A stretch of 64,000 bases of DNA from assembly GCF_057098645.1 (NCBI RefSeq), contig NZ_CM169472.1, one strand, 5' to 3'. Made by a program: the position numbers. The first letter of the stretch is position 1. Each line of letters starts with the position of its first letter. Of the stretch, positions 15,001-17,453 are shown in pieces.

Positions 15001-17453
15001 CCAGAGGATATATCAAAACGCTGGGAGTAATTTGCTTCGCAGCTATTGTACTGGCCTTTGTTTTACCTATAGCAGGCTTCAGCGGAAGCTGGGGAGTACT
15101 CGCAACATTACTCTGCTTCGCCACACCGTTCCTGGCTGTCGCCATCGCTTTTACCCCCTTCGGCAAAAAAGTTCGGGATTTGATGCGTGATGTCAACCAG
15201 CCATCACGCCATACAAGAAGCAATTCTTCCTCCCACTATTCATCATCGTCATCCTCTTCATTCAACAATGACAATTTCAGCGGTGGTGGCGGTTCATCTG
15301 GTGGCGGTGGCGCTTCCGGGCGCTGGTAACAAAAGGAATTGATATGCGTATTTTTCTCTTACTTCTGATGCTATGCGGTTTTCAGGTATTCGCTGAACAA
15401 TGGCCTTCAGTAACTGACTTAACCGGGACATTAACGACAGAAGAACAAACTGCTTTAACTCAACAATTACAGACTCTCGAGCAGCAAAACCACTTCCAGG
15501 TGGCCGTGTTGGTTACGCCGACCACAGGGGGCAAAAACATTAAACTTGCAGCCTCGCAGAGATACGGGGTATATCACTGGAAACCCGTTGGAGAGAAGCG
15601 ATATGGCGAAGGTATCTTAATTCTCGTCGTATGGCCGGAAGGGCTGGCGTCAATGAAGATTGGACATGGACTGGAACAGATGTTGCCGCCGGAACAAGCT
15701 GCGCAAATTGTTCGTTACCATATGCAGCCAGAATTCGAAAAAAACAATCTCTTTGCTGGATTAACGGGCGGAATTGAAAGCATCGCACAGTTTACCCATA
15801 TCAAAGCGAACCTTAGCCCTTTGGATGCTTTAGCCAATCATCTGTTTGCTAATCCGCAACGTTCGCTGCCATGTCTTGCCTGGACACTGCTGATGATCGT
15901 TGCCATCGTTGTCCTCTGGCGATTTGCCAGCCGCCCACGGCGTGGCATATGGATGATATCGATGATTACCCCTATGGTCTGGTTTTTCTCCTTTCAGGAC
16001 GATGTCATCATTCGGCGGGTGTCGATCGTTTGTTTTAGTTTATTGTTAGCAACAACCTGCAAGCAGCGTCTCGCGGTAGTTTTTAATTTGTGCCGCGTAT
16101 TTCCTATGATGCTGGCCCCAAAAAATAAAAACGCTAAAGTGAAAAAACAAAAGAAGACTCCGCAGGTTCGTGAATCAGGACGAAATTCATTGTTTGTCGT
16201 GATGCTGATAATTATTGTGGGATGGTGCCTGGTGTTCGCCAGTAATAAAGATATTGCATTCATCTCAACAATTATTGGGTTAATTGATCATTTTATCGGC
16301 CCAATAACCATTGCTGGCATCGTTCTGCTGATCATTGTGGCCAAATTTACTGGCAATCTTAAGTTGGGATCAGGAGAAAAAAGCAACAGGAAAACGGGGA
16401 ATCGTAATGCTCACTCTCGCTCTTCGTCGAGAAATTCTTTCCGCGGTGGTGGCGGTTCTTCAGGAGGCGGCGGTTCATCCGGCCGTTGGTGATCGTAATG
16501 CGCTTAATCTTTATTCTACTTGCTTTGTGGAGCCTTCCCGGGCTTGCCCAGCAAATTGCTGTGCCGGAGCTGCGCCAACAGGTGACCGATATTACTGGTA
16601 CGTTAAGCACTTCTGAACAACAATCACTGACACAGCAACTGCAGGATATTACACATAAAACACGGGCGCAGGTCGCTGTATTAGTAGTGCCGTCCACCGG
16701 AGACGATTCCATTGAACAATATGCTACAAGGGTTTTTGATAGCTGGAAACTGGGAGATAAGCAGAGAAACGATGGTATTTTACTTCTGGTTGCCAGGGAG
16801 GATCATGCTGTTCGTATTGAGGTTGGCTACGGGCTGGAAGGGGTGGTTACCGACCTGCAAGCGGCGAAAATTATCAGGGATATATTGATCCCTGCCTTCA
16901 AAAGTGATGACCTGATGGGTGGATTAACACTGGCAAGCGAAAATATCGGCGCGCTTCTGTTGAATGGTGAATTATCGGAAGACAAGGGGGATTATTACAG
17001 TATCAATCCTCCTATTCCATTATCGCTTGCTGTAATTATATTGCTGGCGGTACTTTCATATTTTATTGTTTTTACCGATCCGTCGAATTTACCCTGGATC
17101 ACTCTCACTGGCGCCATTTACGGGATGGTATTCCTCTATGTTGCCGAGCCAGGACCATGGACCAATTTAATCGTTGCCTGCGGTATGTTAACGCCTTTTG
17201 CGATCGTACCACTGGTTATTTTTTGGCTTATCGTCAATAAAAAGCTACGCGCCAAATACAAAAAACTCAGTAAAGAAAGAGCTTCAAGAAAAGGTTCTTC
17301 TTCATCCTCTTCCGGTAGAGGCTCAAGTGGCGGCGGGGTTAGCGGCGGGGGCGGTTCTTCTGGCGGTGGCGGCGCGTCCGGTCGCTGGTAACTCAACCAT
17401 AAAAAACGCCAGCCCGAAGGCTGGCATTTTTAAATCAGATAAAGTCAGACTTA

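What the first reader, a model, noticed from the sequence alone, without database searches (positions are those of the whole stretch)
15281..17391. Conserved Gly/Ser-rich C-terminal tail ending in SGRW on all three TPM paralogs
The three ORFs end ...SGGGGSSGGGGASGRW, ...RGGGGSSGGGGSSGRW and ...GGGGSSGGGGASGRW. The underlying DNA differs at many synonymous positions (agcggtggtggcggttcatctggtggcggtggcgcttccgggcgctggtaa vs cgcggtggtggcggttcttcaggaggcggcggttcatccggccgttggtga vs agcggcgggggcggttcttctggcggtggcggcgcgtccggtcgctggtaa). The tail is therefore maintained by selection on the protein, not by recent duplication or gene conversion. A flexible Gly/Ser linker with an invariant terminal Arg-Trp suggests a recognition tag (sorting, processing or partner docking).
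Basis: seen in the sequence. Interest (0 to 1): 0.55.

Follow-up and report, generated by a model that had tools for sequence, protein, structure and literature searches.

The report
Conserved glycine-tryptophan tail of TPM proteins
The three neighbouring E. coli membrane proteins do end in the same glycine-rich tail, but this is the standard, very strongly conserved C-terminal motif of the whole bacterial YgcG/TPM family, and its function is still unknown.

Summary
Three tandem TPM-domain genes sit downstream of a LemA lipoprotein gene, between queE and eno in E. coli. They end in SGGGGSSGGGGASGRW, RGGGGSSGGGGSSGRW and SGGGGSSGGGGASGRW. The protein bodies are only 34-43% identical, and about half of the conserved tail codons differ at the third position. 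This points to purifying selection, not recent gene conversion.

The tail is not special to this locus. It is the hallmark of the bacterial YgcG/TPM membrane-protein family. The motif is [F]-S-GGGG-x-[S/F]-GGGG-A-S-G-x-W-COOH, in a fixed register from the C-terminus. It was found in 77 of 82 complete genes picked by the TPM domain alone, across at least three phyla. Trp is invariant. The Arg is not (S 46%, R 32%).

Hydrophobic-segment counts and charge place the tail in the cytoplasm, behind a disordered Ser/Gly tether. DUF2207 proteins, including E. coli YciQ, carry a similar poly-Gly-Trp end.

My best guess is a cytoplasmic docking peptide (confidence 0.4). AlphaFold2 models its last residues as an added beta-strand, but without a control. 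The partner in E. coli is unknown. Papers mention the tail only as a 'glycine-rich extension' or 'low-complexity segment'. Interest is moderate.

The parts
13802..14422 (+). LemA-family gene, first gene of the operon. Its N-terminus carries a lipobox (FNLSGC), so the product is probably a periplasmic lipoprotein.
   Evidence: ORF. RefSeq annotation 'LemA family protein' on a 100% identical genome. NCBIfam MamQ (LemA family) hit at E 4.5e-25, below cut-off. The lipobox was read from the sequence.
14436..15329 (+). TPM paralog 1: signal peptide, periplasmic TPM domain, 3 predicted TM helices, cytoplasmic Ser-rich tether and the tail. The start is probably GTG 14436, as in database homologues; the longest ORF starts at ATG 14406.
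   Evidence: Pfam PF04536 E 5.6e-41. Homologue P0001 starts MRNFIF. AF2 model: helices 173-190, 193-212 and 218-239, with residues 256-284 disordered.
15276..15326 (+). 17-residue C-terminal motif of paralog 1: FSGGGGSSGGGGASGRW.
   Evidence: AF2 pLDDT is about 92 and DSSP assigns a strand for the last residues.
15344..16492 (+). TPM paralog 2, the most divergent: signal peptide, TPM domain, a longer multi-TM region with a Lys-rich cytoplasmic loop, and the tail.
   Evidence: Pfam PF04536 E 3.7e-21. Sequence.
16439..16489 (+). 17-residue C-terminal motif of paralog 2: FRGGGGSSGGGGSSGRW.
16498..17391 (+). TPM paralog 3. It starts at ATG 16498 (a TTG at 16486 is also open). Its 3' end is shared with the K-12 ygcG allele.
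   Evidence: NCBIfam Psb32 (TPM) hit, below cut-off. 100% match to cluster P0071. A 25-nt identical run with K-12 ygcG in the tail. The K-12-type genomes match the query only at its two ends, the downstream end running to about window 17448.
17338..17388 (+). 17-residue C-terminal motif of paralog 3: VSGGGGSSGGGGASGRW.
17408..17431 (+). Intrinsic-terminator-like hairpin plus T-run that closes the four-gene operon. It lies between the operon and the convergent eno gene.

Best explanation
The tail is the family-defining C-terminal motif of bacterial YgcG-type TPM membrane proteins. The motif is [F/W/Y]-S-GGGG-x-[S/F]-GGGG-A-S-G-x-W-COOH.

Shown here:
- It is present on all three paralogs and on the K-12 YgcG allele.
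- It is under purifying selection.
- It is conserved in a fixed, ungapped register from the free C-terminus across Pseudomonadota, Bacteroidota and Spirochaetota.
- It is preceded by a variable Ser/Gly/Arg-rich stretch that AF2 models as disordered.

Inferred:
- Each protein has a cleavable signal peptide, so the TPM domain is periplasmic.
- An odd number of TM helices (usually 3), followed by a K/R-rich stretch, puts the tether and tail in the cytoplasm.

Proposed mechanism (inference): the tail is a short linear docking peptide held on a flexible leash of about 30-50 residues. Its last 6-9 residues (GGASGxW) bind a cytoplasmic partner by adding a beta-strand to the partner's sheet. The invariant Trp side chain and the free carboxylate act as the anchor. 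This would link a periplasm-facing LemA/TPM module to cytoplasmic machinery.

Candidate partners:
- The small cytoplasmic TPM protein encoded directly downstream in the canonical LemA-TPMlong-TPMshort operon. This gene is absent from E. coli.
- By analogy with B. subtilis YdjH, PspA/SPFH-type membrane-stress proteins.

The partner in E. coli is unknown.
For: Observation and selection.

Family-wide conservation:
- 116 of 144 diverse 50%-identity cluster representatives have a Gly-rich end terminating in W.
- 77 of 82 complete genes selected by a TPM-domain pattern alone end in the canonical motif. The exceptions are frameshifts, truncations or a 3-residue extension.
- Position-specific logo from 198 tails: W 100%, S(-4) 98%, A(-5) 85%, G blocks 93-100%.
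- Almost all sequences end exactly at W, as expected if the free C-terminus is read.

Cytoplasmic location:
- The modal number of hydrophobic segments after the TPM domain is 3 (131/198).
- Net positive charge follows the last segment in 78% of sequences.
- The E. coli paralogs have KKVRDLMRD, NKKLRAKYKK and similar stretches after the last TM.

Structure prediction:
- In AF2 of paralog 1, the tether has pLDDT below 50, but the last residues reach about 92 and are assigned as a strand. The only other strands in the model belong to the TPM domain.
- In a chimera of a cytoplasmic TPM-short with its cognate tail, the last 6 residues are again a strand, at pLDDT about 83.

Link to TPM-short: F at position -10 goes with a TPM-short gene downstream. 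Counts are 38 F / 4 S with the gene and 10 F / 25 S without it, seen in alpha-, beta- and gamma-proteobacteria.

Precedent: B. subtilis TPM protein YdjH is needed to recruit cytoplasmic PspA and YdjI to the membrane, and interacts with both in two-hybrid assays (PMC8581546).
Against: - No partner has been identified.
- E. coli has no TPM-short gene (none among the 30 of 34 listed hits, a collection that includes whole E. coli chromosomes). The one concrete candidate receptor is therefore missing in the organism at hand.
- The AF2 docking has no negative control. In the full-length model it joins two parts that should lie on opposite sides of the membrane, so it could be a modelling artefact.
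- The F(-10)/TPM-short association is confounded by phylogeny.
- DUF2207 proteins have a similar Gly-rich...W end without any TPM domain in their operons. This argues against a TPM-specific receptor.
- The YdjH tail, inferred from primer sequences, ends ...SRGSF and is not the canonical motif.
- The cytoplasmic location is predicted, not measured.
Confidence: 0.4

Rival explanations
1. Turnover control. The long flexible cytoplasmic tail governs degradation of these membrane proteins by FtsH, HtpX or another AAA+ protease. It would act either as an initiation site or degron ending in Trp, or as a 'slippery' poly-Gly tract that resists engagement.
For: The tail is predicted to be cytoplasmic, flexible and longer than 20 residues. 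From my own knowledge, that is what FtsH needs to start on a membrane protein, and Gly-rich tracts weaken the grip of AAA+ motors. In other lineages LemA genes are paired with membrane proteases instead of TPM: HtpX in Listeria and M48 in Mycobacterium. This ties the LemA module to membrane-protein quality control.
Against: There are no stability data. A generic initiation site would not need A(-5), S(-4), G(-3) and W(-1) conserved across phyla. The motif resembles no known degron.
Confidence: 0.15
2. Self-association. Tails from several copies, homo-oligomers or the three paralogs, pair with each other through beta or polyglycine-II contacts, with Phe and Trp acting as stickers. This would cluster the proteins on the cytoplasmic face.
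For: The motif is an internal repeat (FSGGGG / S[S/F]GGGG / ASGxW) with spaced aromatic residues. Upstream sequence often continues as GGGF repeats. Tandem tail-bearing paralogs recur in E. coli, Mesorhizobium, a Bacteroidetes MAG and L095. YdjH self-interacts in two-hybrid assays. AF2 shows that the end is strand-prone.
Against: There is no direct evidence. Monomer AF2 cannot test it. YdjH self-interaction could come from the TPM or TM parts. E. albertii alleles that have lost one GGGGSS block persist.
Confidence: 0.15
3. The tail is actually periplasmic and folds back in cis onto the edge of the protein's own TPM beta-sheet. It would work as an autoinhibitory or structural strand that LemA or a ligand could displace.
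For: The full-length AF2 model places the last 9 residues as a strand at pLDDT about 92, and only TPM-domain strands are available as partners. The most conserved domain segment (RIEVGYGLEG) is itself a strand.
Against: This needs an even number of TM helices. The crude count gives an odd number in 156/198 sequences, with 3 as the mode. The segment after the last TM is strongly basic (9 K/R in 19 residues in paralog 3), which argues for the cytoplasm. The loop after TM1 is also basic. DUF2207 has a similar tail and no TPM domain.
Confidence: 0.1
4. The tail has no specific function. It is a low-complexity spacer, for example one that lets the last TM helix leave the ribosome before termination, and its apparent conservation comes from composition and GGN-repeat dynamics.
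For: Published papers treat it as a 'low-complexity segment' (PMC11237479). The upstream tether is variable in length and sequence. Repeat-unit loss occurs in E. albertii alleles.
Against: A spacer would not keep a fixed register, an invariant terminal Trp, and A-S-G at -5 to -3 across phyla while the DNA diverges. No such ends occur in neighbouring ORFs.
Confidence: 0.05

Closest known systems
Bacterial YgcG/TPM-domain membrane proteins (Pfam PF04536, COG1512), usually encoded next to LemA
   Same: Same domain and same architecture: signal peptide, TPM domain, TM helices, Gly-rich end. Same LemA neighbour and same terminal motif. The K-12 YgcG allele ends in FSGGGGSSGGGGASGRW.
   Different: This strain has three tail-bearing paralogs in tandem and no small cytoplasmic TPM gene. 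The commonest proteobacterial operon is LemA-TPMlong-TPMshort. K-12 has only yqcG plus ygcG.
Psb32 / TLP18.3 (photosystem II assembly and repair factor; lumenal TPM domain plus one TM helix)
   Same: TPM fold on the extracytoplasmic or lumenal side, anchored by C-terminal TM helices. Weak NCBIfam hit.
   Different: The scores are far below the family cut-off (34.7 against 160). A preprint reports that Psb32 lacks the glycine-rich C-terminal extension carried by non-photosynthetic bacterial homologues (10.1101/2025.05.08.652833).
DUF2207 membrane proteins (E. coli YciQ, S. mutans SMU.243)
   Same: A large extracytoplasmic N-terminal domain, several TM helices, then a Gly/Ser-rich end finishing in Trp. 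Examples are YciQ ...GGGAGGGAGGGGGGGW, Sinorhizobium ...FSGGGGGGGGGGGW and Streptomyces ...GGGGGGSW. They are often next to LemA (PMC10457818).
   Different: The domain is unrelated. The tail is a plain poly-Gly run without the GGGG-x-x-GGGG-A-S-G-x-W register.
B. subtilis YdjH (TPM protein of the pspA-ydjGHI operon)
   Same: A TPM-domain membrane protein whose only cytoplasm-facing part, if its topology is like that of YgcG, would be a low-complexity C-terminal segment. It recruits cytoplasmic PspA and the SPFH protein YdjI.
   Different: The operon context differs (PspA, not LemA). The end inferred from the published primers is ...SRGSF, not the canonical motif. YdjH topology was not tested here.
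C-terminal docking peptides that bind by strand addition or through a terminal aromatic residue (PDZ ligands, HbYX-type tails, SSB tip)
   Same: A flexible tether followed by a short motif in fixed register with the free carboxylate, and an invariant terminal aromatic residue.
   Different: No receptor domain is known, and the Gly-rich sequence matches no described ligand class. This is an analogy from general knowledge, not a tested membership.

Membership tests
TPM domain family (PF04536) / YgcG-type membrane proteins | Significant match to the TPM_phosphatase profile | tested here: met
   Paralog 1 E 5.6e-41 and paralog 2 E 3.7e-21. Paralog 3 is 100% identical to a PF04536-annotated cluster, P0071.
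TPM domain family (PF04536) / YgcG-type membrane proteins | Architecture: N-terminal signal peptide, TPM domain, TM helices, Gly-rich C-terminal end | tested here: met
   Sequences, AF2 helices and disordered tether, TM count.
TPM domain family (PF04536) / YgcG-type membrane proteins | Terminal motif GGGG-x-[S/F]-GGGG-[A/S]-S-G-x-W-COOH | tested here: met
   All three paralogs match the family logo.
LemA-TPM operon | A LemA gene directly upstream on the same strand | tested here: met
   LemA at 13802-14422, with intergenic gaps of 14 nt or less. The same arrangement holds for at least 64 of 79 tail-bearing genes elsewhere.
LemA-TPM operon | A small cytoplasmic TPM gene (about 165 aa, ending NELPDxPVVL) downstream | tested here: not met
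   eno follows paralog 3 directly. No Escherichia record appears among the listed tblastn hits for TPM-short.
Psb32 / TLP18.3 | NCBIfam NF047379 score above the curated cut-off | tested here: not met
   34.7 and 32.0 bits against a cut-off of 160.
C-terminal sorting signals (LPXTG, PEP-CTERM, GlyGly-CTERM and similar) | A signature motif followed by a hydrophobic helix and a basic cluster at the very C-terminus | tested here: not met
   The proteins end at W right after the Gly-rich motif. The hydrophobic helices lie upstream, and no NCBIfam sorting-signal model matched.
YxzE-like putative bacteriocin (PF25184) | A full-length match to a small secreted peptide | tested here: not met
   Only residues 267-302 of a 307-aa membrane protein match, at E 1e-4. 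This is a low-complexity cross-hit on the Ser/Gly tail.
C-terminal beta-strand docking peptides | A fixed register to the free C-terminus with a conserved terminal hydrophobic residue | tested here: met
   The ungapped logo from the C-terminus has W at 100%. Only 3 of about 200 sequences extend past W.
C-terminal beta-strand docking peptides | An identified receptor domain that binds the peptide | tested here: inconclusive
   AF2 puts the end as a strand beside a TPM sheet in two constructs. There is no control and no coordinates were available, and E. coli lacks a cytoplasmic TPM domain.
ssrA-like or other C-terminal degrons | Protease-dependent instability conferred by the terminal residues | not testable with these tools
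   This needs in vivo half-life measurements.

The most novel reading that the evidence does not exclude
The poly-Gly...Trp-COOH end is a modular cytoplasmic 'plug' shared by unrelated LemA-partnered envelope proteins (TPM-long and DUF2207). It inserts as a beta-strand into a cytoplasmic receptor, which would be the small TPM protein where one is encoded and something else in E. coli. This would couple events sensed by the periplasmic LemA/TPM module to cytoplasmic membrane-stress or assembly machinery. If true, it is a widespread and so far undescribed trans-membrane coupling device.
Probability: 0.15. Interest if true: 0.7.

Novelty: already known. Interest (0 to 1): 0.4.

Why it matters
TPM/YgcG proteins and their LemA partners are very widespread. 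One search found 22,547 clusters at 50% identity with E<=0.001. They have no established function in non-photosynthetic bacteria.

The tail is the most conserved part of these proteins outside the TPM domain. It is probably the only part exposed to the cytoplasm, which makes it the most direct experimental handle on what the family does. A 17-residue synthetic peptide, a one-codon truncation or a W-to-A change would each be easy to test.

As a result about this window, the finding is ordinary. The three paralogs show the normal family feature, and they are annotated in RefSeq.

Tried and rejected
A PDB sequence search with the tail found nothing.
- A full-text search for the motif strings (GGGGASGSW and variants) found no paper.
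- Searches for YgcG found no functional or topology study.
- TPM plus LemA together appear only in two Flavobacterium sppA papers, which I did not open.
- NCBIfam has no model for the tail. The Pfam YxzE hit is a low-complexity cross-match.
- The listing of cluster members gave no organism names for ten diverse representatives, so the phyletic spread rests on the named genome loci only.
- I considered LemA as the tail's partner and rejected it. The E. coli LemA has a lipobox and should be periplasmic. K-12 keeps the tail on YgcG with no LemA at that locus.
- I considered a sorting signal and rejected it on anatomy (see the membership test).
- I considered a misplaced stop or frameshift artefact and rejected it, because homologues across phyla end at the same W.
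- The resemblance of GGGGASG to the tubulin/FtsZ GGGTG[ST]G loop was judged superficial and was not pursued.
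Full report
**What is there**

The window is E. coli chromosome. queE lies at 12976-13647 on the minus strand, eno at 17451-18749 (minus) and pyrG at 18837-20474 (minus). Between queE and eno, on the + strand, lie four tightly packed genes:
- a LemA-family gene (13802-14422);
- TPM paralog 1 (14406/14436-15329);
- TPM paralog 2 (15344-16492);
- TPM paralog 3 (16486/16498-17391).

Gaps between the genes are 14 nt or less. A hairpin plus T-run closes the unit at 17408-17431. Pfam finds the TPM domain (PF04536) in paralogs 1 and 2 at E 5.6e-41 and 3.7e-21. 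Paralog 3 is identical to a PF04536-annotated cluster. RefSeq annotates a 100% identical stretch in strain C325 as 'LemA family protein' and three 'TPM domain-containing protein' genes.

**Checking the observation**

The tails differ at 8-12 of 51 nt. Seven or eight of 16 codons differ synonymously and 0-2 non-synonymously.

Outside the last 17 residues the three window paralogs are 34-43% identical, and 29-43% if the K-12 allele is included. The last 17 residues are 14-17/17 identical. Third-position identity at conserved codons is about one half, and identical nucleotide runs among the window's three genes are short, at 8-16 nt.

The one exception concerns paralog 3 and the K-12 ygcG allele, which share a 25-nt run. 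They share the 3' end of the locus.

No other ORF in the window has such an end. In 4760 ORFs from 80 unrelated loci, the only non-TPM ORFs with a Gly-rich end were one unrelated terminus without the motif and one frameshifted TPM fragment.

**It is a family hallmark, not a local curiosity**

K-12 YgcG, which is only 29-41% identical in its body, ends in FSGGGGSSGGGGASGRW. Among the closest 120 database clusters, 95 end in SGRW, and most of the others are fragments or frameshifted copies.

A full HMMER scan of 1.84 billion representatives found 22,547 clusters with E<=0.001. Of the 144 new diverse representatives returned, 116 have a Gly-rich end finishing in W. That sample favours tails, because the query contained one.

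I therefore scanned one genome per species with a TPM-domain-only alignment. Of 82 complete ORFs carrying the domain pattern, 77 end in the canonical motif. The five exceptions are frameshifts, truncations or a 3-residue extension. The hosts include alpha-, beta- and gamma-proteobacteria, Bacteroidota (Fulvivirga, L053; a MAG, L076) and Leptospira (L060).

An ungapped logo from 198 tails, counted back from the C-terminus, reads as follows:

| Position | Residue frequencies |
|---|---|
| -17 | F 69% |
| -16 | S 70% |
| -15 to -12 | G 93-99% |
| -11 | variable |
| -10 | S 51% / F 48% |
| -9 to -6 | G 95-100% |
| -5 | A 85% |
| -4 | S 98% |
| -3 | G 92% |
| -2 | S 46% / R 32% / G 10% |
| -1 | W 100% |

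The 'linker' is really a 17-residue position-specific motif, and the variable tether lies upstream of it.

**Where it sits**

Each paralog starts with a typical signal peptide, and TPM domains of Psb32/TLP18.3 are lumenal, so the TPM domain should be periplasmic. After the domain, AF2 models three TM-length helices in paralog 1 (173-190, 193-212, 218-239).

A crude hydrophobicity count over 198 family members gives 3 segments as the mode (131/198), with odd counts in 156/198. Net positive charge follows the last segment in 78%. The E. coli proteins have KKVRDLMRD, NKKLRAKYKKLSKERASRK and similar stretches after the last helix. By the positive-inside rule the tether and tail are cytoplasmic. 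This is a prediction, and I found no experimental topology.

**Context**

In most proteobacterial loci the operon is LemA, then TPM-long, then TPM-short.
- TPM-long has a signal peptide, TPM domain, about 3 TM helices and the tail.
- TPM-short is about 165 aa, has no signal peptide, no TM helix and no Gly tail. It has its own conserved end, NELPDxPVV[LM].

TPM-short is present in 42 of 80 loci. LemA lies upstream of at least 64 of 79 tail-bearing genes. The E. coli LemA carries a lipobox (LSGC), so it should be periplasmic and cannot be what the cytoplasmic tail touches.

E. coli has no TPM-short. No Escherichia record appears among the 30 of 34 listed hits of a tblastn search in a collection that includes whole E. 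coli chromosomes. Tandem tail-bearing paralogs are not unique to E. coli. They also occur in Mesorhizobium, in a Bacteroidetes MAG, and in a metagenomic locus arranged TPM-short, LemA, TPM386, TPM822.

**A parallel in another family**

E. coli YciQ (DUF2207) ends ...SYSGGGAGGGAGGGGGGGW. LemA-adjacent DUF2207 proteins of Sulfitobacter and Sinorhizobium, and DUF2207 proteins of Martelella and Streptomyces, also end in poly-Gly plus W. A paper on S. mutans DUF2207 notes an intracellular Gly/Ser-rich C-terminus (PMC10457818).

Other LemA partners have no such end: HtpX in Listeria, an M48 protease in Mycobacterium and DUF3137 in Thermus.

**Hints on mechanism**

AF2 of paralog 1, with 99 homologues, gives a mean pLDDT of 82.5. 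The tether (256-284) is below 50. The last residues rise to about 92 and DSSP a strand. The only other strands in the model are those of the TPM domain, so the model docks the tail on the TPM sheet. In cis this is topologically impossible if there are three TM helices.

I then fused a cytoplasmic TPM-short to the last 50 residues of its cognate TPM-long, using 29 paired sequences. The last six residues are again a strand at pLDDT about 83, with the tether disordered.

Independently, Phe at -10 goes with the presence of TPM-short. Counts are 38 F / 4 S with it and 10 F / 25 S without it, seen in three proteobacterial classes but confounded by phylogeny. The E. coli tails are the 'SS' subtype typical of loci without TPM-short.

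The only experimental precedent for a cytoplasmic role is B. subtilis YdjH. This TPM membrane protein is required to bring cytoplasmic PspA and the SPFH protein YdjI to the membrane, and it interacts with both in two-hybrid assays (PMC8581546). Ravi et al. describe its C-terminal part simply as a 'low-complexity segment' (PMC11237479).

**Explanation and rivals**

I favour a cytoplasmic docking peptide on a flexible leash, read through the terminal Trp and free carboxylate and probably binding by strand addition (confidence 0.4). The partner in E. coli is unknown.

The rivals are:
- control of proteolytic turnover (0.15);
- tail-tail self-association (0.15);
- a periplasmic tail docking in cis on its own TPM domain (0.1);
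- a functionless spacer (0.05).

The position-specific conservation and fixed register argue strongly against the last. The basic post-TM segments argue against the periplasmic model.

**What is known**

[quoted passage not shown] I found no paper that defines the motif, notes the invariant terminal Trp, or tests a function.

The feature itself is therefore already known and ordinary for the family, and these genes are annotated. What remains open is its function.

Noticed in passing
window 13650-17450, compared with 5426 complete E. coli genomes: The queE-eno interval is polymorphic. 1102 of 5426 genomes carry the full LemA plus three-TPM locus. Some carry LemA plus a truncated TPM pseudogene. 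Most, including K-12 types, carry only the small envelope-stress gene yqcG plus one ygcG, which shares just its 3' end with paralog 3.
   Followed up: partly
L021 8816-9313, L050 8814-9314 and about 40 other loci: A small TPM protein of about 165 aa is encoded directly after the tail-bearing TPM gene in many Proteobacteria. It has no signal peptide and no TM helix. It has its own conserved C-terminus, NELPDxPVV[LM], which AF2 also models as a short strand. Its presence goes with Phe at tail position -10 of the upstream protein.
   Followed up: partly
L003 6319-8214 (E. coli yciQ); L085 4566-6458; L090 2426-4375; L091 2327-4378; L092 2734-4665: Unrelated DUF2207 membrane proteins from Proteobacteria and Streptomyces also end in a poly-Gly run finishing with Trp. 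Two of them sit right after a LemA gene.
   Followed up: partly
L004 about 4975-4980 (Escherichia albertii NBRC 107761): In the E. albertii orthologue of paralog 2 the terminal Trp codon is TAG instead of TGG, so the protein ends ...GGGGASGR. This is a natural one-residue truncation. Several E. albertii alleles of paralog 1 (P0021-P0025) have lost one GGGGSS block and end FSGGGASGRW.
   Followed up: no
database clusters P0032, P0033, P0035, P0040, P0043, P0047 and P0049 (relatives of window 14406-15329): Many E. coli copies of paralog 1 in public assemblies are frameshifted within or after the TM region, ending ...GFDA or ...NKRN. This suggests frequent decay of this gene.
   Followed up: no
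window 12426-12637: Four copies of a 30-nt direct repeat (GCGGTTTATCCCCGCTGGCGCGGGGAACTC) with spacing of about 61 nt lie just upstream of queE. This is a short CRISPR array of the E. coli type, at the place where K-12-like genomes are annotated with a CRISPR.
   Followed up: partly
window 17136-17396, minus strand: An 86-aa antisense ORF rich in Pro and Glu (PPPPEEPPPP...) lies over the tail of paralog 3. It is the mirror image of the GGN/TCN repeats and is almost certainly not a gene.
   Followed up: no
L087 3989-5483, L088 3935-6423, L089 3941-5600: LemA genes pair with different downstream membrane proteins in other phyla: HtpX in Listeria, a 629-aa M48 metallopeptidase in Mycobacterium and DUF3137 in Thermus. 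None has a Gly-Trp end. LemA looks like a common partner of several membrane-protein families.
   Followed up: no
L084 1376-2131 (Lactobacillus johnsonii plasmid): In a LemA/TPM cluster of a Lactobacillus plasmid the two TPM proteins lack the tail. A neighbouring 251-aa hypothetical protein ends ...GFGGDFGGGGGTANF. The primers published for B. subtilis imply that YdjG ends ...MGGGF and YdjH ...SRGSF. This may be a Firmicute variant ending in Phe.
   Followed up: no
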